Positions 1,480 through 10,813 of a DNA stretch of 64,000 nt are shown piece by piece. Position 1 is the first letter of the stretch, and every line of letters starts with the position of its first letter. Origin of the DNA: Candidatus Binatia bacterium (lineage in GTDB: Bacteria; Desulfobacterota; Binatia; Bin18). Location: positions 608,001 to 672,000 of the forward strand of contig OY761159.2 of the NCBI GenBank assembly GCA_963664395.2. Reading direction: 5' to 3'. The notes beneath the pieces were generated by a model. It was not told where the DNA came from, did not search any database, and saw only the letters and a program-made list of their open reading frames with translations. Both the position numbers and the translations under genes were made by a program.

Positions 1480-1569
1480 TGGCGGAGAGGGGGGGATTCG
1501 AACCCCCGATACCCGAAGGTATACACGATTTCGAGTCGTGCGCGATCGACCGGACTCTGCCACCTCTCC
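1480..1569 (-). tRNA. tRNA-Ser (anticodon CGA)
   Basis: Acceptor stem GGAGAGG/CCTCTCC-G-CCA, anticodon arm CACGA-CT-CGA-AA-TCGTG, long variable arm, GGTTCGAATCC T-loop. Confidence 0.97.
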
Positions 1570-2145: not shown

Positions 2146-3756
2146 CTTCGGCGGCTCGCAACGGCACCCGTTCTTGGCTCTGCCTCTTGTTGTCACGAAC
2201 AACCCGGCGCAACTCATCCAGCGTTCCGACCCCTCCCCGACTCCCGACAATACTATCAACTGCGAGGTCGTATCTCTCGATGGCGTTGAGGAGGTCCCGA
2301 GACCAATCGGCAACCTGTCGGACGGCTCCCGGCGTAAACAGGTCGGCCACAAAGAGTAAGCGTTCCTCAGGCAGATAGACGATCAACATCCCATCCACAT
2401 GCACGGTCTCAATCGGGTAGACAATAACCACCCGATTTTCATCAACGAAAAACTTGCGCTCATTCTTGACTGCTTCAATGACAGCAATGCGCGGACGACG
2501 ATGGAGGCTGTCCGGGACTTGGGTATGAAGCGCACGAAAGGCGTCTTGGAAGAGTGGGACGTTCAGCGCACTGGTCACCACAATCGTATCGGCTGCCACA
2601 TAGGCCCGCAGTCCACCCGCGTGCTCAGCTATGAAAGTGCGTATTAACGACAAACCGGACAGGCTTGGTTGGAAAGCGTTGACGTAACGTATCGAGTACC
2701 GCGAGTGAGTGTGTATCGTCCTGGGGGGCCTCAACCACAATCAGGTACTCGCCCATCTCAACGGCCAGACTCTGATATCTTCCACCGACAATATGCATCA
2801 CCCCTGGGGCAAGGTCACGAAGCACTGGCGTTGAAGCGGAAGTACCAACCGGGTCGGCCCTGGGCAATCTGACGCAGCACCCAGTGAGAACTCTGTTCTC
2901 CGCGCGCCCCGTCCCACTCTTCCGGCTGCTCGATCTCTTCCGGAATAGTAAAGTCCACTTGGGAAAGATCAACATCGTTCTGAATAACCTCAACATGTTC
3001 AACCATGATGGTCTGGCCGTCGACCCGGTAGGTCCGTTCAAACGGGAGTCTGAGCTTTCCAACTTGACGCCAATCGGCAAAAAACACTTCGTTCTGAACG
3101 TCCCCATACAAAGGATCATCTTCAACAAAGACGACCTTGGTCAGTAGTCGCGTTTCCGAGTCAATGGCCAACAGGACGAGCTGCGTATTATCATTAAACG
3201 AGACAACCACTTGGCGGCGGCCATGAATCGTTTGATCCATTAAACGCAGAAAGGAGTCCGAACGACTCAGCGCATGAATAAGGACGGAGACGGGCGAACG
3301 GCGCAGCTCTTTTTGACGGGCGGCAATACGGGTGGCCGACATCGCCCGTCGGCGTGGACTATCAAAGCCATCGTGTCCGAGTATGACGCCATCAAGTCCG
3401 CTCATGACCTCCGTGTATTCCCAGGTTTCCCGAAAGGGATATATGAGCGTGCGCTCCCACTCATAGCGCACTCGGCCCTGCTCCAAGTCTTGGAAGAGCA
3501 CGTACCGAAATTCTGACACCTTCTGTGGCTCGGCTCCTGGCCGCGGACTCAGGTCGGGCTCAAAATTCTCGCCATGGCTGATAATACGCTGACTTTTGAG
3601 GTCAAGCAGGACCGGCCGTTCGCCAATCGCGAGCACGGCCGAATTGACAAAAACCTTGGCAGGTTGGGCCCACACCAGAGGAGGGCAAAAGAGCAGCGAC
3701 AGACAGACACCCCAGACAAGACGTGTCGCAATACTGACGGCTCTCCGCTTTTTCAT
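2135..3756 (-). pseudogene. Secreted MBL-fold metallo-hydrolase broken by two +1 frameshifts (or assembly errors)
   Basis: Signal-peptide-like N-terminus. The three ORFs join into one protein if one C near 2852 and one base near 2627 are removed, restoring NTHFHSEHAGG. Later HVDGML and VADLF motifs are present. Confidence 0.75.
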
Positions 3757-3779
3757 CTGTCCTGGAGGAAAAGGCCCGA

Positions 3780-4403
3780 TTAACCGGTCAGTCCAATCCG
3801 GACCTCTTCGTAACTCGGCCGGCTTTTCAGCCGCTCAGCCCAGGCTGCCACTTTTGGAAATGGACTGAGGTCGATACCTAATAGGTCGCCCAACCCAAGA
3901 AACGGGGTGAAGGTCAGATCGGCAAGGCTATAGTCGCCCATGAGATAGTCTTGATTCCGGAGCCGCTCCTCGAGTTGAGGAAAGAGTGCGTTGAGCCCGT
4001 CTCTATTCCGTGTCATGCGTTCCGGGTCTTGTTCCTCTGCGGGTTTGCGGCTGGTATACAGCAGACGAATGATCGGTGGTACGAACTGGCTGTTACACAT
4101 TTCGATGAGCAGCCGCATTTCAGCCCTGGCGGCTGGCGCCGACGGCGCTAATGCCGGCGTGGGGTATTTGTCTTCCAAATACTCGTTACAGATGGCCGAC
4201 TCATAGACCCACGTCCCTGCTTCGACCAGCACCGGCACTTTGCCGTAGGGGTTAATGGCAAGAAACCAGGGTTCCTTTTGTTCTTTGCTCGGCAGGTCTA
4301 TCAGAATGCGATCAAAGTCGAGGTCTTTTTCTTTGAGAACGATCCTCGTTCTCATAGCGAACGGTCAAGGCAGATAGTCAAACAACTTTCTTTTGATAGT
4401 CAT
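3780..4403 (-). CDS. Glutathione S-transferase family protein, probable selenoprotein (UGA at codon 13, 4367-4365)
   Basis: RBS GGAGAGGAG then ATG 4403 gives MTIKRKLFDYLP-UGA-PFAMRTRIVL, in frame with the GST body (INPYGKVPVL, YESAICNEYLED, YSLADL). Confidence 0.85.
4334..4354 (-). promoter_or_regulatory. Candidate bacterial SECIS hairpin
   Basis: UGAGAACGA-GGA-UCGUUCUCA: perfect 9-bp stem with G-containing loop, starting 10 nt 3' of the in-frame UGA. Confidence 0.7.
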
Positions 4404-4447
4404 GCGCGGCTCCTCTCCATGCGGTGCAAATGGCTCTTCAAACGTTG

Positions 4448-4476
4448 ACCTTAGAAAGACCGGGTGGGTACGTCAA
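4448..4476 (-). promoter_or_regulatory. Sigma70-like promoter for the GST gene
   Basis: TTGACG-N17-TAAGGT on the minus strand, about 45 nt upstream of ATG 4403. Confidence 0.5.
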
Positions 4477-4529
4477 GTCTCTTCGTCCGACGAGAGGGCA
4501 CATTCCTCAACAGAGACAGGCGGACGGCT

Positions 4530-4994
4530 CTAAATATCATACATCGGTACATGCGAGCCGCGGCGCCGGCTTGCTTCGGCGCGTTTGCACATCTCCGCCA
4601 CACTCACCTGAGCAAAGGCTGAGGCAATGGACGCACCGACTTCCAGCATAATACTGCGCAGCCAACAATATTCGAGACTGACACAGTCCGCGCATGTTAC
4701 CGGGTTTGCATCTTCCACACAGGGTAAGGGAGCCAGTGGGCCGTCTACCGCCCAGACAACCTCTTGTAACGAGATGGCCTGTGGGTCGCCCACTAACGTA
4801 TATCCTCCGGCCTTGCCACGCGTACTGTGGACAATGCCGGCTCGCTTGAGTGCGAGAAGCACTTGTTCCAGAAATTTCTTGGGAATGCGTTCTCGACGGG
4901 CAATCTCTTGAATAGGCAATACCTCAGGAGCGCCAGGCGCTCCCAGGCAGGTAAGCGCCCTGAGAGCATATTCGCTTTTCTTCGATATTTTCAT
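4530..4994 (-). CDS. Rrf2-family transcriptional regulator (IscR/CymR-like)
   Basis: SEYALRAL, IPKKFLEQVL, STRGKAGGY motifs, C-terminal Cys cluster and MYDI tail. Confidence 0.92.
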   Translation of the reverse strand: MKISKKSEYALRALTCLGAPGAPEVLPIQEIARRERIPKKFLEQVLLALKRAGIVHSTRGKAGGYTLVGDPQAISLQEVVWAVDGPLAPLPCVEDANPVTCADCVSLEYCWLRSIMLEVGASIASAFAQVSVAEMCKRAEASRRRGSHVPMYDI

Positions 4995-4995
4995 A

Positions 4996-5143
4996 AATCA
5001 CTATTTACTTAGTAGACAATGGTTCCTCTAGTCAATCCCAATGCCTTGCCAAAATTTTTATCAGCAAAGTACTTGACATACGGGCATGAATACTCATAAA
5101 TGAGCTTTATAAGACGATAAAAACTATAGATTTAATAGTGATT
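4996..5143. promoter_or_regulatory. Divergent promoter region with two inverted Rrf2-type operator candidates
   Basis: AATCACTATT-TACTTAGTAGAC at 4996 and its inverted counterpart ACTATAGATTT-AATAGTGATT ending at 5143. TTGACA at 5073. Confidence 0.5.
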
Positions 5144-5185
5144 AGCCGCTCATTCAAAACAATCAAGTCTGAGGAGAGCCGGACT

Positions 5186-7216
5186 ATGGATTCAGCCACG
5201 ACAGAAAGTAGAGGAAACGGGCGCGTAGGCACCCTTGAGAACCCTGAAGTGCCCCCCAATATTCCCGGCCGCGTCATCCCGATTCTTGAAAGGGAATTCG
5301 ACGATTTTGATGACGAAGCGCGCAAGTTTCTTGATGGAGATATAGACCGTCAGGCATTTATGGGTTTTCGGCTCCGCCAAGGCGTATACGGACAACGGCA
5401 ACCCGATGTCCAGATGATCCGGGTCAAGCTCCCCTTTGGTGGAGTAACGCCGGACCAGTTCGACGCGTTTGCCGACATCGCCGAAAAATATGCGCCGCTC
5501 AAAAAAGGCCACATCACTACCCGACAAAACGTCCAGTTCCATTTCATTCCCCTGCTGGAAGCAGCACGAGCCATTCGTCTGCTCGGCGACTCTGGTTTGT
5601 CGACGCGGGAAGCGTGTGGCAACACGGTCCGGAATGTTGTGTGTGATCCGTTTGCCGGAGTTGATCCGGACGAAGCATTTGACCCAACCCCGTACGTTGG
5701 CGCGCTGGTCCGCTATTTTGTTCGCAACGAACTGACCCAAGCTCTTCCCCGAAAATTTAAGATGGCCTTTTCCAGCACCGATAAAGACCGTGCGGTGACT
5801 GGTATTCACGACCTCGGCTTTATCCCTCGCCTCAAAAACGGGCGCAAGGGTTTCAGCATCTCTACCGGCGGGGGTACATCAATTCTGCCCCGGGTGGGCC
5901 GCATGCTGTATGACTTTGTTGGTGTAGACGAATATCTCAAAGTCGCGGAAGCCGTGATCCGTATTTTTGATCGGCAAGATGAGCTGCGCAAAAACCGAGC
6001 CCGGGCCCGTATTAAATTTTTTATCGATCGGATTGGTCTGGATGCGTTTCGTGCGCTCGTTGACGCTGAGATGCGAGGCGACTGGATCAACGCACGCAAC
6101 TTTGACCCCACGCCTCTGCAATGGAATGACAACGAAGAAGAGCGTGCCCCACACGCCCCCATCAATCCTATCAATCCCGGCAGCCCGAACGGCGACCGGC
6201 AGGAGTTCGCCCGCTGGGCCGCCGCCAATGTACAGCCACAACGCCAGGACGACTTTTCGACCGCGGAAGTGAAGATCGCCCGGGGTGATCTTACGCCTGA
6301 ACAGTTCCGGGGTATGGCGCAGATCATGCGGGATTTCAGCGGTGGTCATGCTCGGACGTCGGACGAACAGAATGTGGTGCTGCGTTGGGTCCGCAACGAG
6401 AGCCTGTATGATGTGTGGCTTCGCCTGCAAGCAATCGGTCTGGGTGATGCCGGCGCACGACAGATCACTGATGTCGTGAGTTGCCCTGGTACTGACAGTT
6501 GTAAGCTCGGCATTACCAACTCCATGGGCCTGGCTCAGGCAATCCAGCGACGTGTTGAAGAACTGGCCAAAGAGCTGACAATGGACGATCCGCTCACCAA
6601 AAAAATCCATATCAAGATAAGCGGCTGCCCCAACGGCTGTGGACGCCATCACATTGCCAATATTGGCTTTTACGGCGCAGCCATGAAGTTCGACACGCGT
6701 CAGGTTCCGGCCTATATCGTCATGCTGGGCGGCCAATACGACGCTGGTCAGGTCCGCATGGGTCAACGCCTGAATGTCCGCGTTCCGTCAAAACGTGTTC
6801 CTGAGGCAGTGGAACGATTTGTGCGGCATTATCAGGCCCAGCGTCACACCGCTGAGGCATTCAACGCCTTCGTCGATCGTGTTGGGACCGGCCCGTTTGA
6901 AAGGCTGATCGCTGACCTTTCACTTCCGGTGACGTTTGACGACGAACACCTGAACGAATTTATCGATTGGAACCAAAATCGCGTCTATAAACTCGAACGC
7001 GGCGAAGGCGTGTGTATAGCCAGAGCTATACCAGTATCGGCTGTGCTCCATGCATCCGACCAACTGAAAAAGGGGAAGACGCGCGCGCGGCGCTGGTGGT
7101 GGGAAAACGGGAAAGGCGGAGCAATAAAAGAGTGCGGCATGCACTGCTCTCTTGAAAGCGGCCGTTTTGAGCGCGAATACAGCGCGGGCTTTCATCAGAA
7201 CGGCGAGGGTATTTAG
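5186..7216 (+). CDS. Ferredoxin-dependent sulfite/nitrite reductase (siroheme) with aberrant C-terminal extension
   Basis: RLRQGVYGQRQ, TTRQN, ACGNTVRN, LPRKFK, CPGTDSCKLG and SGCPNGCGRH motifs. The expected end (ERGEG.C) runs into cysH-derived sequence. Confidence 0.92.
   Translation: MDSATTESRGNGRVGTLENPEVPPNIPGRVIPILEREFDDFDDEARKFLDGDIDRQAFMGFRLRQGVYGQRQPDVQMIRVKLPFGGVTPDQFDAFADIAEKYAPLKKGHITTRQNVQFHFIPLLEAARAIRLLGDSGLSTREACGNTVRNVVCDPFAGVDPDEAFDPTPYVGALVRYFVRNELTQALPRKFKMAFSSTDKDRAVTGIHDLGFIPRLKNGRKGFSISTGGGTSILPRVGRMLYDFVGVDEYLKVAEAVIRIFDRQDELRKNRARARIKFFIDRIGLDAFRALVDAEMRGDWINARNFDPTPLQWNDNEEERAPHAPINPINPGSPNGDRQEFARWAAANVQPQRQDDFSTAEVKIARGDLTPEQFRGMAQIMRDFSGGHARTSDEQNVVLRWVRNESLYDVWLRLQAIGLGDAGARQITDVVSCPGTDSCKLGITNSMGLAQAIQRRVEELAKELTMDDPLTKKIHIKISGCPNGCGRHHIANIGFYGAAMKFDTRQVPAYIVMLGGQYDAGQVRMGQRLNVRVPSKRVPEAVERFVRHYQAQRHTAEAFNAFVDRVGTGPFERLIADLSLPVTFDDEHLNEFIDWNQNRVYKLERGEGVCIARAIPVSAVLHASDQLKKGKTRARRWWWENGKGGAIKECGMHCSLESGRFEREYSAGFHQNGEGI
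7013..7216 (+). pseudogene. cysH: 3' remnant of APS/PAPS reductase
   Basis: An alternative frame reads YSQSYTSIGCAPCIRPTEKGEDARA, then RWWWE...KECGMHC in the reductase frame. These are hallmark CysH C-terminal motifs. Confidence 0.8.
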
Positions 7217-9362: not shown

Positions 9363-9755
9363 ATGAGCGATAAAGTCGAAAAGACCGACGAGGAATGGCG
9401 CGCAGAGCTTACCCCCGAGCAGTTTGCCGTCTGTCGGATGAAGGCGACCGAGTCACCTTTCTCAGGCGCATACAACGATTGCAAGGATGAGGGCATCTAC
9501 CAGTGTGTGTGTTGCGGCACCGACTTGTTTCACTCATCCACGAAGTACGAATCGGGCAGTGGTTGGCCCAGCTTTTGGGAACCACTGAAGCCGGACAGTG
9601 TGCGCCTGGAATCAGACCATGGCCACGGCATGACCCGGACCGAAGTGATGTGCAACACCTGCGCTGCCCATCTGGGCCATGTATTTGACGATGGCCCACC
9701 GCCAACCGGGCAGCGCTACTGCATGAACTCCCTCTCGCTTCAGCTCAAAAAGTGA
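9363..9755 (+). CDS. msrB: Peptide-methionine (R)-S-oxide reductase
   Basis: KYESGSGWPSF, HLGHVFDDGP and RYCMNS motifs, two CxxC zinc motifs. Confidence 0.96.
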   Translation: MSDKVEKTDEEWRAELTPEQFAVCRMKATESPFSGAYNDCKDEGIYQCVCCGTDLFHSSTKYESGSGWPSFWEPLKPDSVRLESDHGHGMTRTEVMCNTCAAHLGHVFDDGPPPTGQRYCMNSLSLQLKK

Positions 9756-9871: not shown

Positions 9872-10813
9872 ATGACTCGTTTGTTTAACGATATCACCGA
9901 AACCATTGGCCATACGCCATTAGTGCGGCTCAATCACCTCACGCAGGATGCGGGAACTGAGGTGGGAGCTGAGGTGTATGCCAAGCTGGAATTCTTCAAT
10001 CCTCTGAGCAGCATTAAAGATCGTATTGGATACAATATGATTGCTGCCGCGGAAAAGGCCGGTAAGGTCACTGCAGAGACTGTCATCATCGAGCCGACAA
10101 GTGGCAACACCGGCATCGCCCTGGCCTTTGTTGCCGCAGCCCGGGGCTATCGGATCATCCTGACCATGCCTGACTCCATGAGTATGGAGCGGCGCAATCT
10201 GCTGCGCTTCCTTGGTGCGGAACTGGTCCTCACACCAGCCCGCGAAGGGATGCCCGGCGCGATTCGCAAAGCCGAGGAACTCGCCGCAAACATCCCGCAT
10301 GCTTTTATTCCACAGCAGTTTGAGAATCCGGCCAACCCGGACATTCATCGCCGGACCACGGCCCGCGAAATTTGGGAGGACACCGACGGCAAGGTCGATA
10401 TTTTTATCAGCGGTGTGGGAACGGGCGGGACCATCACTGGGGTGTCTGAGGTGATTAAACCGCTCAAACCGAGCTTTCAGGCCATAGCGGTCGAGCCCGC
10501 CAGCTCATCAGTGCTCTCCGGCGGCCAGCCCGGACCAACCCAGATTCAAGGCATCGGCGCCGGTTTCGTCCCTGCCATTCTGAATACCGCCATTATTGAT
10601 GAAATCATCACCGTCCGGGATGAAGACGCACTCGCCACAGCGCGCCAGCTTGCCAGACGAGAAGGCATTCCCGCCGGCATCAGCAGCGGCGCCACAGTCT
10701 GGGCCGCGCTCCAGGTTGCGGCCCGGCCGGAGAACGCCGGGAAAATGCTGGTTGTTATTCTGGCCAGCTCGGCTGAGCGATATTTGAGTACGGCGTTGGT
10801 TGAAGACCTCTAA
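9872..10813 (+). CDS. cysK: Cysteine synthase A
   Basis: [22 protein letters not shown] and IQGIGAGF motifs. Confidence 0.95.

What the first reader, a model, noticed from the sequence alone, without database searches (positions are those of the whole stretch)
3780..4476. Hidden selenoprotein: GST with UGA at the active-site Cys position and a SECIS-like hairpin
Seen: promoter, strong RBS and ATG 4403 give MTIKRKLFDYLP-UGA-PFAMR in frame with a complete GST. The ORF-track start would delete the first beta-strand and active-site loop. A perfect 9-bp hairpin with a GGA loop begins 10 nt after the UGA. Known: Cys-type GSTs (omega, lambda, DHAR) use a CPF-type motif here, and bacterial Sec insertion needs a hairpin just 3' of UGA. 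Sec-GST-like sequences have, to my recollection, been predicted from metagenomes but are little characterised. Inference: a UPFA selenoenzyme acting as a thiol-transferase or deglutathionylase, next to Rrf2, sulfite reductase, msrB and cysK.
Basis: partly seen in the sequence, partly recalled or inferred. Interest (0 to 1): 0.85.

Follow-up and report, generated by a model that had tools for sequence, protein, structure and literature searches.

The report
Selenocysteine glutathione transferase gene in Binatia
A glutathione-transferase gene that databases annotate as a shortened 191-residue protein most likely encodes a full 207-residue enzyme whose catalytic residue is selenocysteine, a further branch of a selenoprotein family predicted since 2005 but never tested at the bench.

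Summary
On the minus strand, ATG 4403 opens 12 sense codons, then TGA (4367-4365), then a complete GST frame ending at 3780. A 9-bp hairpin with a GGA loop starts 10 nt after the TGA.

The selenoprotein reading holds up:
- The genome carries selA, selB, selD and tRNA-Sec.
- 49 of the 50 orthologue matches in the order that cover codon 13 keep an in-frame TGA. One has none.
- An orthologue from the public genome collection has TGC, and outgroup homologues have Cys or Ser there.
- Codons 5-12 upstream are invariant as amino acids, apart from one Ala at codon 12, and vary synonymously.
- The hairpin meets the published bacterial SECIS criteria and shows two compensatory pairs.
- It matches the hairpins behind at least 8 further TGA codons at catalytic-type motifs in AhpD-like and peroxiredoxin-like genes of the same genome.

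Sec sits at the N-cap of helix alpha-1, the catalytic Cys position of Cys-type GSTs.

This is not a new kind. GST-like selenoproteins with Sec at this position were predicted from Sargasso Sea data in 2005. The order-wide Binatia clade, its truncated database annotation and its conserved Rrf2 / sulfite-reductase-like neighbourhood turned up in none of my literature searches. Sec insertion and enzyme activity remain untested.

The parts
3780..4403 (-). Full Sec-GST coding sequence: 207 codons plus TAA, with Sec (UGA) at codon 13
   Evidence: Translation with TGA=U. Pfam GST_N_2/GST_N_3/GST_N match residues 6-83 and GST_C matches 108-196. AlphaFold2 model has mean pLDDT 89.2 and a GST fold.
4410..4418 (-). 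Shine-Dalgarno-like GGAGAGGAG, 6 nt before ATG 4403
   Evidence: Read. A purine-rich core is kept before the start in 26 of 26 related genomes.
4365..4367 (-). In-frame UGA, proposed Sec codon 13 (motif U-P-F-A)
   Evidence: TGA in 31 of 31 extracted Sec-clade sequences. 49 of 50 order-level matches covering the codon have a TGA. TGC in L069, and Cys or Ser codons in 60 distinct outgroup homologues.
4334..4354 (-). Proposed bacterial SECIS: 9-bp stem with GGA tri-loop (loop 4345-4343), 19 nt between UGA and loop
   Evidence: Fold. 98.2% of 225 cells paired across 25 distinct sequences, with 2 pairs showing compensatory changes. Arg20 is AGG and Leu23 is CTC in 31 of 31 sequences, with no synonymous variation.
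4353..4355 (-). Met17 ATG, the start used by gene callers (191-aa truncated product); lies inside the hairpin's 5' arm
   Evidence: ORF list. 93 of the first 95 database hits are 191-193 aa. The codon is CAG (Gln) in L047/L068.
4530..4994 (-). Rrf2-family regulator directly upstream on the same strand
   Evidence: Pfam Rrf2 113 bits and TIGR00738 110 bits. Present beside the GST in 6 of 8 further genomes examined.
2815..3756 (-). Conserved downstream gene: 313-aa protein of unknown function with a hydrophobic, signal-peptide-like N-terminus (my reading, no predictor run)
   Evidence: No Pfam or NCBIfam hit. Downstream of the GST in 8 of 8 further genomes and in most 1.5-kb flanks. Atlas neighbours are 'outer membrane lipoprotein-sorting protein family' clusters scoring 0.95, a lead only.
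5138..7216 (+). Divergent NIR_SIR-domain sulfite/nitrite reductase-like gene
   Evidence: Pfam NIR_SIR and NIR_SIR_ferr. NCBIfam NirA family 236.8 bits, below its 523-bit cut-off. Beside Rrf2 in 6 of 8 further genomes.
9363..9755 (+). msrB (context only)
   Evidence: TIGR00357 181.4 bits against a cut-off of 113.
9872..10813 (+). cysK (context only)
   Evidence: TIGR01139 454.5 bits against a cut-off of 351. Next to the reductase gene in 4 of 6 other-genus genomes.

Best explanation
The gene at 4403-3780 (minus strand) encodes a 207-residue glutathione-transferase-fold selenoprotein. During translation, SelB carrying Sec-tRNA(Sec) binds the 9-bp/GGA-loop hairpin 10 nt downstream of UGA13 and inserts selenocysteine instead of terminating. 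This step is inferred from the anatomy and from comparative data.

Sec13 lies in the loop between strand beta-1 and helix alpha-1, at the N-cap of alpha-1. That is the position of the catalytic Cys in the C-P-F/Y motif of Cys-type GSTs and glutaredoxins. This is shown by alignment and by the model.

The enzyme therefore most likely works through a Se-S mixed intermediate with glutathione. It would act as a thiol-transferase or reductase (deglutathionylation, or reduction of disulfide-like or oxidised-sulfur substrates) rather than as a conjugating GST. This is inference and was not tested.

The gene belongs to a cluster conserved across the family: cysK / sulfite-reductase-like gene, divergent from Rrf2 - Sec-GST - unknown protein with a signal-peptide-like N-terminus. 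This points to a role in thiol or sulfur redox metabolism, which is a weak inference.
For: 1. The Sec machinery is complete in the same genome.
- selD scores 316 bits.
- tRNA-Sec scores 66.7 bits in Rfam, and ARAGORN calls it SeC with anticodon tca.
- selA scores 596 bits and lies next to the tRNA.
- selB scores 390 bits.

2. The TGA is conserved.
- 24 of 24 same-genus genomes plus one same-order genome have the orthologue with exactly one TGA.
- In the whole order, 52 of 56 genomes have the orthologue. Of the 50 matches that cover codon 13, 49 carry a TGA.
- In 31 of 31 extracted sequences the TGA is codon 13.

3. Sec/Cys pairing is seen. L069 has TGC in an otherwise 67%-identical orthologue and sits inside the Sec clade, sister to a Sec form. 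Among 60 distinct outgroup homologues (38-47% identical) the column is Cys in 30 and Ser in 30.

4. The frame upstream of the TGA is translated. Codons 5-12 are invariant as amino acids in 31 sequences, except one Ala at codon 12. Each of these codons uses 2-5 synonymous codons. Met17 is Gln in one lineage, so no alternative start exists there.

5. The hairpin meets all four published bSECIS criteria (PMC13188914, Fig. 2 legend). It has a 3-nt loop, a 9-bp stem, GG at the start of the loop, 19-nt spacing, and a fold energy of -12.5 kcal/mol.
- 98.2% of cells are paired. None of 500 shuffles reaches this, and slid controls give 36-49%.
- Pair 21/27 is G-C in 16 sequences and A-U in 9, with no mismatch.
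- Pair 18/30 is A-U in 16, G-U in 4, G-C in 4, and mismatched in one.
- The row L034 carries the G-C form while nested among A-U rows, which indicates a second independent double change.
- Arg20 and Leu23 inside the hairpin show no synonymous variation (31 of 31 each). Leu7, Leu11 and Arg5 outside it use 3-5 codons each.
- The 27-nt hairpin window folds at -9.0 to -13.7 kcal/mol in 25 Sec forms. Only 5 of 60 non-TGA homologues reach -9.0 or lower, and the Cys orthologue L069 folds at -5.0.

6. The genome's other selenoprotein genes use the same hairpin style. At least 8 further TGA codons sit at catalytic-type motifs: C-x-x-U in AhpD-like genes, and T-P-G-U or U-x-x-C in peroxiredoxin-like genes. 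Seven of these are followed, 17-22 nt downstream, by 6-8-bp stems capped by loops that begin G(G/U) or have G second; for the eighth I read no such hairpin.

7. TGA is otherwise a normal stop. 16 of 38 long open frames in the window end in TGA.

8. Structure supports the position. The model places beta-1 at residues 5-9 and alpha-1 at 14-25. A Met17 start would delete beta-1 and the active-site loop. The glutathione-site residues V56-P57 and S69 are invariant in alignment A4 (their role in binding is recalled). gshB is present at 406 bits.

9. RNA-library contigs from two studies span 4051-4425, 3700-4427 and 3700-4519 with no change at the TGA.
Against: - Nothing here shows that selenium is actually inserted.
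- The hairpin of this single sequence is not better than shuffles (z = 0.09).
- The stem lies inside strongly conserved coding sequence (R-T-R-I-V-L). Five of 9 pairs never vary, and part of the conservation is protein constraint.
- The compensatory changes trace to few events among close relatives.
- Four of 225 cells are unpaired. By my reading of the alignment, these include a G.G mismatch in L071 and a C.U mismatch in L067.
- 5 of 60 non-Sec homologues also fold at -9 kcal/mol or lower at the same place.
- Contigs from RNA libraries do not prove transcription (tool caveat).
- For the 18 order-level matches whose DNA I did not extract, I know only that a TGA lies inside the match, not that it is codon 13.
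- The best fold matches are phi, Ure2p, SspA and Nu classes, not omega, lambda or DHAR. The catalytic chemistry is extrapolated from the position of the residue alone.
Confidence: 0.88

Rival explanations
1. UGA13 is read through without selenocysteine. A near-cognate tRNA would insert Trp, Cys or Arg, giving a full-length non-selenium protein.
For: A full-length product is required by the conserved N-terminal codons, and that alone does not say which residue is inserted. No experiment here identifies the residue.
Against: - The Sec machinery is complete.
- A SECIS-type hairpin sits at the canonical distance and shows compensatory changes.
- The same hairpin style follows TGA codons at catalytic-type motifs of AhpD-like and peroxiredoxin-like genes in this genome.
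- Cys occupies the homologous column. This is the classical Sec/Cys signature used to define selenoproteins (PMC1088965, section 18).
Confidence: 0.05
2. UGA13 is a true stop. The functional product is the 191-residue protein from Met17, as annotated in public databases. The upstream 12 codons would be a leader peptide or a termination-reinitiation device.
For: - 93 of the first 95 database hits are annotated this way, and all NCBI records looked up are 191-192 aa.
- AUG17 lies only 9 nt after the UGA, so reinitiation is geometrically possible.
Against: - The 12 upstream codons and the 3 codons between the UGA and AUG17 are homologous to strand beta-1 and the C-P-F motif of full-length Cys homologues.
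- These codons are under amino-acid-level purifying selection.
- A Met17 start would remove beta-1 and the active-site loop of the thioredoxin-like domain.
- Met17 is Gln in L047/L068.
- No purine-rich ribosome-binding motif precedes AUG17.
Confidence: 0.04
3. The gene is a pseudogene, or the TGA is an assembly or sequencing error.
For: A single in-frame stop in a metagenome-assembled genome is a common artefact.
Against: The same TGA is found in 49 of 50 informative orthologues from independent assemblies and in RNA-library contigs of two studies. There are no frameshifts or further stops, and the whole frame is under strong purifying selection.
Confidence: 0.01

Closest known systems
GST-like selenoprotein family (Zhang, Fomenko and Gladyshev 2005, Sargasso Sea; also in the GOS 2008 table and the 2022 and 2026 reviews)
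   Same: It has a GST N-terminal domain (COG0625/PF13409) and a single Sec encoded by an in-frame TGA near residue 12-13, immediately followed by Pro and an aromatic residue. Two Sargasso sequences in Additional file 1 show u-P-W-V and u-P-Y-A at residues 13 and 12. It has Cys homologues and a downstream SECIS-like hairpin. Function is uncharacterised in the literature (PMC13188914, passages read).
   Different: The window's protein belongs to a clade found only in one order of Candidatus Binatia: 52 of 56 genomes in the order, against 2 of 401 in a phylum-wide sample, both from the window's own genus. Its motif is U-P-F-A-M-R-T-R-I-V-L. By eye it is only distantly similar to the Sargasso sequences. 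I did not align them with a tool, and I could not compare the reviews' representative accessions. The NCBI records of the clade that I looked up are annotated as 191-192-aa truncated proteins.
Cys-type GSTs and glutaredoxin-2-like proteins (omega-class GSTO1, 1eem; SspA-like proteins 6v91 and 4qq7 with a C-P-F-S motif)
   Same: The residue aligns with the Cys of the C-P-F motif in 6v91 and 4qq7 (alignment printed). By offset (query 7-197 against chain 26-211) it corresponds to Cys32 of 1eem. That this is the catalytic Cys32, with motif CPFA, is recalled. The fold is a GST fold with TM 0.74-0.85.
   Different: It carries Sec instead of Cys. It has no omega-type N-terminal extension, since beta-1 starts at residue 5. 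Sequence identity is 31% or less, and the top Foldseek hits are phi, Ure2p, SspA and Nu classes.
Bacterial SECIS consensus model (bSECISearch model as summarised in PMC13188914, Fig. 2 legend)
   Same: All four stated constraints are met (see membership test).
   Different: The loop is a minimal tri-loop (GGA) on a perfect 9-bp stem. No Rfam family matched the region at E <= 1.
AhpD-like (C-x-x-U) and peroxiredoxin-like selenoproteins of the same genome
   Same: They would use the same decoding system. Their hairpins have the same style: 6-8-bp stems capped by short loops with G first or second, 17-22 nt after the UGA.
   Different: They have different folds and different redox motifs. They are listed as known families in the reviews.

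Membership tests
Bacterial selenoprotein gene (general definition) | Sec decoding machinery (selA, selB, selC, selD) in the same genome | tested here: met
   selD 316 bits, tRNA-Sec 66.7 bits with an ARAGORN SeC(tca) call, selA 596 bits, selB 390 bits; all are above their curated cut-offs.
Bacterial selenoprotein gene (general definition) | In-frame TGA conserved among orthologues and aligned with Cys in homologues | tested here: met
   49 of 50 informative order-level matches carry a TGA. Codon 13 is TGA in 31 of 31 extracted sequences. L069 has TGC. Among 60 distinct outgroup homologues the column is Cys in 30 and Ser in 30.
Bacterial selenoprotein gene (general definition) | Selenium actually incorporated at the UGA | not testable with these tools
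   Needs 75Se labelling or mass spectrometry.
bSECIS consensus model (PMC13188914 Fig. 2 legend) | Apical loop of 3-9 nt on an upper stem of 4-16 bp | tested here: met
   3-nt loop and 9-bp stem.
bSECIS consensus model (PMC13188914 Fig. 2 legend) | G in one of the first two loop positions, mostly as G[G|U]N | tested here: met
   The loop is GGA and is invariant in 25 of 25 distinct sequences.
bSECIS consensus model (PMC13188914 Fig. 2 legend) | 16-37 nt between the UGA and the apical loop | tested here: met
   19 nt (4364-4346), read.
bSECIS consensus model (PMC13188914 Fig. 2 legend) | Minimum free energy of -7.5 kcal/mol or lower | tested here: met
   -12.5 kcal/mol for the hairpin-bearing fold. 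-9.0 to -13.7 in the 27-nt window across 25 Sec forms.
GST-like selenoprotein family (Zhang et al. 2005) | GST domain with Sec at the N-terminal active-site position (U-P-aromatic near residue 12-13) | tested here: met
   Pfam GST_N_2 72.5 bits. U13-P-F here, against u-P-W and u-P-Y at residues 13 and 12 in the paper's Additional file 1 (compared by eye).
GST-like selenoprotein family (Zhang et al. 2005) | Sequence-level clustering with the published members or the reviews' representative accessions | not tested
   The published sequences were not put into any tool. The representative accessions (PPR62222.1, MEK9676863.1) could not be fetched. None of the NCBI accessions found for this clade is one of them.
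Omega-class GST | Catalytic Cys at the N-terminus of alpha-1 in a C-P-F-A-type motif | tested here: met
   U-P-F-A sits at the N-cap of alpha-1. The alignment offset to 1eem places it at residue 32.
Omega-class GST | Class-specific N-terminal extension and closest fold or sequence match to omega members (feature recalled) | tested here: not met
   Only 4 residues precede beta-1. The omega E-value of 4e-18 is weaker than SspA-like at 8e-28. The top Foldseek hits are phi, SspA and Ure2p classes.
Glutathione-dependent enzyme | Conserved glutathione-site residues (cis-Pro V-P and E-S at the alpha-3 N-terminus; their roles are recalled) and glutathione synthesis in the organism | tested here: met
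   V56, P57 and S69 are invariant in 27 sequences. gshB scores 406 bits against a cut-off of 299. gshA was not searched.

The most novel reading that the evidence does not exclude
The Sec-GST may be a selenium-dependent reductase for oxidised or sulfonated thiols made at the cysteine-synthase / sulfite-reductase step, such as S-sulfocysteine, S-sulfoglutathione or persulfides. It would release sulfite or sulfide to the divergently encoded reductase, under control of the adjacent Rrf2 regulator.

In addition, the SECIS appears to have frozen helix alpha-1 as R-T-R-I-V-L. The same GGA-loop hairpin is shared with a second GST lineage only 32-38% identical (U-P-Y-A-H-R-T-R-I-V-L). That would imply an old radiation of Sec-GSTs in a selenoprotein-rich Binatia lineage.
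Probability: 0.1. Interest if true: 0.6.

Novelty: new member of a known kind. Interest (0 to 1): 0.4.

Why it matters
No GST-like selenoprotein has been characterised at the bench. The 2026 review says that the functions of nearly all these predicted families remain largely uncharacterised.

This clade offers an unusually clean test case:
- a single Sec at the catalytic position;
- a natural Cys variant (L069, P0013) for comparison;
- a minimal 21-nt SECIS that is easy to mutate;
- a conserved regulatory and sulfur-metabolism neighbourhood that suggests substrates.

There is also a practical point. Public records of this gene are N-terminally truncated and lack the catalytic residue. Function predictions and metaproteomic searches that rely on them will miss the active site.

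Finally, three Pfam queries alone flagged 12 TGA-containing redox genes in this genome, 9 of them with the TGA at a catalytic-type motif. That marks this Binatia lineage as selenoprotein-rich. Two literature searches found no paper on this point.

Tried and rejected
- Rfam scan of 4200-4520 at E <= 1: no family matched. I know of no bacterial SECIS family in Rfam, so this is uninformative.
- Promoter and terminator scan: no minus-strand promoter upstream of the gene.
- Sec-containing formate dehydrogenase: 0 of 11 molybdopterin-domain hits carry a stop. The Sec trait in this genome is therefore not explained by FDH.
- Thioredoxin: 0 of 4 hits carry a TGA.
- Single-sequence fold statistics do not support the hairpin.
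- Pfam and NCBIfam gave nothing for the conserved 313-aa neighbour. The Atlas gave only unnamed or LolA-like clusters.
- RNA-library contigs: X15 ends at 4425 and one X16 contig ends at 4427. A second X16 contig overlaps that point and continues to 4600, and X17 continues to 4519. No transcript start can be read from this.
- The careful tree search did not finish. The tree cited is the quick IQ-TREE run with SH-aLRT support only. The placement of the Cys form as sister to a Sec form has support of 85, below the 95 mark.
- In the TGA-gene survey, my frame picker failed for L138 and was ambiguous for L142. Those two loci are not counted as confirmed motifs.
- C8:71-277, a seventh CMD hit with a TGA, was not fetched.
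Full report
**What is in the sequence**

On the minus strand, ATG 4403-4401 opens 12 sense codons (MTIKRKLFDYLP). These are followed by TGA at 4367-4365. The frame then runs on as PFAMRTRIVL... to TAA 3782-3780. The mechanical ORF list shows only the 191-codon piece starting at Met17 (3780..4355).

Read through, the 207-residue protein matches the GST N-terminal domain models from residue 6 and GST_C over residues 108-196.

A perfect 9-bp stem with a GGA loop occupies 4354-4334. It begins 10 nt after the TGA, and its loop begins 19 nt after it. For this single sequence the fold is not better than chance (z = 0.09; 107 of 200 shuffles fold as well). The hairpin therefore has to be judged on comparative evidence.

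A GGAGAGGAG motif lies 6 nt before ATG 4403.

**The organism and its Sec machinery**

Contig titles of near-identical loci name Candidatus Binatia metagenome-assembled genomes. The window's own 5.04-Mb assembly carries the full machinery:
- selD, 316 bits. It is a 755-residue fusion with a pyridine-nucleotide-disulfide oxidoreductase domain.
- tRNA-Sec, 66.7 bits, which ARAGORN calls SeC with anticodon tca.
- selA, 596 bits, about 440 bp from the tRNA.
- selB, 390 bits.

TGA is otherwise an ordinary stop: 16 of 38 long open frames in the window end in it.

**Conservation of the TGA**

- All 24 same-genus genomes and one same-order genome have an orthologue (68-93% identical) with exactly one TGA inside.
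- Across the order, 52 of 56 genomes have the orthologue at E <= 1e-60.
- Two of those 52 matches start after residue 30 and are uninformative.
- Of the other 50, 49 contain a TGA and one (G458) has none.
- I extracted the DNA for 31 Sec-clade sequences. In all 31 the TGA is codon 13. For the remaining order-level matches I know only that a TGA lies within the match.
- In an even sample of 401 genomes from the phylum, only 2 have the orthologue, both from the window's own genus.

**Sec/Cys pairing**

One orthologue in the public genome collection (L069, 67% identical) has TGC at the column, with the motif L-A-C-P-F-A-M-R-T-R. So does the metagenome protein P0013.

In a quick maximum-likelihood tree of 58 rows, the 33 Sec forms and this Cys form make one clade. 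A long branch separates it from the rest (length 0.84, SH-aLRT 100). The Cys form is sister to a Sec form with support 85.

The 60 distinct outgroup homologues (38-47% identical) carry Cys codons in 30 cases (motifs C-P-F-C, C-P-F-A, C-P-F-G) and Ser codons in 30 cases.

**Translation upstream of the TGA**

In the 31 sequences, codons 5-12 are invariant at the amino-acid level, apart from one Ala at codon 12. Every one of these codons uses 2-5 synonymous codons. These residues align with strand beta-1 of full-length Cys homologues (K-L-Y-D-Y).

In L047/L068, Met17 is replaced by Gln, so the annotated start does not exist there.

The AlphaFold2 model (mean pLDDT 89.2) places beta-1 at residues 5-9 and alpha-1 at 14-25. 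A Met17 start would remove beta-1 and the active-site loop.

**The hairpin as a SECIS**

The four constraints of the published bacterial SECIS model were read in the Fig. 2 legend of PMC13188914. All four are met: a 3-nt loop, a 9-bp stem, GG opening the loop, 19-nt spacing, and -12.5 kcal/mol.

Across 25 distinct Sec-clade sequences, 98.2% of 225 cells are paired. None of 500 shuffles reaches this value, and sliding the partner by 1-3 columns gives 36-49%.

Two pairs change on both sides:
- Columns 21/27 are G-C in 16 sequences and A-U in 9, with no mismatch.
- Columns 18/30 are A-U in 16, G-U in 4 and G-C in 4, with one mismatch.

All these changes are synonymous third-position changes. One row (L034) carries the G-C form while nested among A-U rows in the tree. 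The double change therefore happened at least twice.

Inside the hairpin, Arg20 is AGG and Leu23 is CTC in 31 of 31 sequences. Leu7, Leu11 and Arg5 outside it use 3-5 codons each. That pattern indicates RNA-level constraint on top of coding constraint.

The 27-nt hairpin window folds at -9.0 to -13.7 kcal/mol in all 25 Sec forms. Only 5 of 60 non-TGA homologues reach -9.0, and the Cys orthologue L069, which carries an A.C mismatch, folds at -5.0.

Caveats on the hairpin:
- Five of 9 pairs never vary.
- The sequences are close kin.
- By my reading, two Sec forms carry a stem mismatch (L071, L067).

**An internal control from the same genome**

Pfam-domain searches of the genome flagged '1 TGA' in:
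- 7 of 16 CMD (AhpD-like) hits;
- 4 of 9 AhpC-TSA hits;
- 1 of 27 GST_N_3 hits, which is this gene;
- 0 of 4 thioredoxin hits;
- 0 of 11 molybdopterin hits.

I fetched 10 of the 11 non-GST loci. In 8 of them the TGA sits at a known catalytic-type motif:
- C-x-x-U in five AhpD-like genes;
- T-P-G-U in two peroxiredoxin-like genes;
- U-P-Y-C in one peroxiredoxin-like gene.

In seven of these 8, I read a hairpin 17-22 nt downstream with a 6-8-bp stem, capped by a GGC, GGU or GUU loop or, once, an AGGAA loop. For the eighth (L136) I read no such hairpin. For two loci my frame picking failed, and they are not counted. The GST hairpin (9 bp, GGA loop, 19 nt) fits this house style.

**Other Sec-GST lineages**

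Three further GST homologues in the same class carry a TGA at the same column.
- Two of them (G027, G035; 32-38% identical) read H-T-U-P-Y-A-H-R-T-R-I-V-L. They have an 8-bp stem with the same GGA loop at the same place.
- One (a G025 paralogue) reads P-T-U-P-Y-C-Q-K-V-R.

The R-T-R-I-V-L peptide therefore travels with the hairpin.

**Expression hints**

Contigs from metatranscriptome libraries of two studies cover 4051-4425 (X15), 3700-4427 (X16) and 3700-4519 (X17). They show no difference at 4365-4367. The tool warns that such contigs do not prove transcription.

**Fold and class**

By sequence, the nearest solved proteins are:
- SspA-like proteins with a C-P-F-S motif (6v91, 4qq7; E about 1e-27). 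Position 13 aligns with their Cys.
- Omega-class GSTO1 follows at 4e-18. The offset puts position 13 at residue 32.

Foldseek returns phi, SspA, Ure2p and Nu class GSTs at TM 0.74-0.85. The protein is a canonical cytosolic-type GST fold with a Cys-type (here Sec-type) active site. It is not demonstrably a member of the omega, lambda or DHAR classes, and it lacks an N-terminal extension.

V56-P57 and S69 are invariant. I recall these as glutathione-site residues. gshB is present.

**Genomic context**

In six genomes from other genera of the family the order of genes is: sulfite-reductase-like gene, divergent from Rrf2 - Sec-GST - 313-aa unknown - deaminase, with cysK beside the reductase gene in 4 of the 6. 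In two same-genus genomes, Rrf2 and the reductase gene are replaced by an aminotransferase. Totals over these 8 genomes:
- The 313-aa protein and the deaminase follow the GST in 8 of 8.
- Rrf2 plus the reductase gene are present in 6 of 8.
- cysK lies within 20 kb in 4 of 8.

The 313-aa protein, whose N-terminus looks like a signal peptide (my reading, no predictor run), has no Pfam or NCBIfam match. It only resembles LolA-like clusters in the Atlas. The link to sulfur or cysteine metabolism is suggestive, not demonstrated.

**Comparison with the literature**

GST appears among the new selenoprotein families of the Sargasso Sea study (4 sequences; table and Additional file 1 read). There the Sec is at residue 12-13, followed by Pro and an aromatic residue, which is the same position as here.

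The family is also listed in:
- the GOS study (12 sequences; table passage read);
- the Olavius symbiont study (table passage);
- the 2022 and 2026 reviews (passages read).

The 2026 review states that the functions of nearly all these predicted selenoprotein families remain largely uncharacterised.

Two full-text searches found nothing relevant. 'Binatia' plus 'selenocysteine' gave 0 papers. 'selenoprotein, sponge, symbiont, selenocysteine' gave 4 papers, none on this topic by title and abstract.

In the protein database, 93 of the first 95 hits (60-98% identical) are 191-193 aa. Only P0013, the Cys form, covers the N-terminus. The seven NCBI-named clusters looked up are 191-192-aa 'glutathione S-transferase family protein' records.

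**Verdict**

This is very probably a genuine selenocysteine-containing GST. It is a new, order-wide clade of a selenoprotein family that has been known from predictions since 2005.

Its interest lies in three things: it is a clean, mis-annotated test case; it has a minimal SECIS and a natural Cys variant; and it sits in a selenoprotein-rich lineage. It is not a new kind of system. Sec insertion and the enzyme's chemistry remain to be shown.

Noticed in passing
own genome G000, contig C1 (outside the window): e.g. 984792-985046, 3692874-3693128, 1128129-1128335, 1752274-1752519, 550432-550677, 4311617-4311988, 2437446-2437883, 3597046-3597420: The genome looks selenoprotein-rich. 7 of 16 CMD/AhpD-like hits and 4 of 9 AhpC-TSA hits contain one in-frame TGA. 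In 8 of the 10 loci I fetched, the TGA sits at a C-x-x-U, T-P-G-U or U-x-x-C motif; in 7 of these I read a short G-loop hairpin 17-22 nt downstream. No Sec formate dehydrogenase was found (0 of 11 hits).
   Followed up: partly
G000:C1:4506291-4507208 (locus L001 1390-3657, minus): selD is a 755-residue fusion of an N-terminal pyridine-nucleotide-disulfide oxidoreductase domain (residues 10-317) with the AIRS/AIRS_C selenophosphate synthetase part. I recall such fusions being reported, but I did not check this.
   Followed up: partly
G000:C1:2573200-2573292 and 2573734-2575065: tRNA-Sec and selA lie about 440 bp apart on opposite strands. selB is elsewhere, at 3066790-3068679.
   Followed up: no
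L155 (G027:C85:29300-30400), L156 (G035:C62:9450-10550), L154 (G025:C15:396800-397900): Further Sec-GST lineages occur in the same class, with the TGA at the same column. Two read U-P-Y-A-H-R-T-R-I-V-L and have an 8-bp stem with the same GGA loop. One reads U-P-Y-C-Q-K-V-R, a U-x-x-C motif.
   Followed up: partly
window 4188-4190 and 4095-4097 (minus strand; residues 72 and 103 of the protein): Cys72 (E-S-A-I/L-C-N-E-Y) and Cys103 are invariant in the Sec clade (alignment A2). In the Cys-type outgroup, position 72 is Ile, while position 103 is Cys in 3 of 9 outgroup rows and other residues in the rest. Either could be a resolving thiol for a selenenyl-sulfide. Distances could not be measured because model coordinates are not exposed.
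   Followed up: no
window 2815-3756 (minus): A 313-residue protein with a signal-peptide-like N-terminus (my reading, no predictor run) and no Pfam or NCBIfam family always follows the Sec-GST (8 of 8 genomes). Its nearest Atlas clusters are unnamed or 'outer membrane lipoprotein-sorting protein family' at 0.95.
   Followed up: partly
window 4530-4994 (minus), residues 101, 104 and 110: The Rrf2 regulator carries three cysteines spaced C-x2-C-x5-C near its C-terminal part (read). I recall that Fe-S-binding Rrf2 proteins hold their ligands in this region. Its best equivalog-type hit is CymR, 66 bits, below the cut-off.
   Followed up: no
window 1480-1569 (minus): tRNA-Ser (anticodon cga). It also scored weakly (34.8 bits) against the tRNA-Sec model.
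   Followed up: yes
public protein records of the clade (P0002-P0096; NCBI accessions): There is a systematic annotation error. 93 of the first 95 database hits are 191-193 aa; those I aligned begin at Met17 and lack strand beta-1 and the catalytic residue.
   Followed up: yes
window 3700-4600, sequencing runs: A 'sponge metagenome' and its metatranscriptome are among the runs that hold this stretch nearly identically. The lineage may be sponge-associated. Only coded or partial labels were seen.
   Followed up: no
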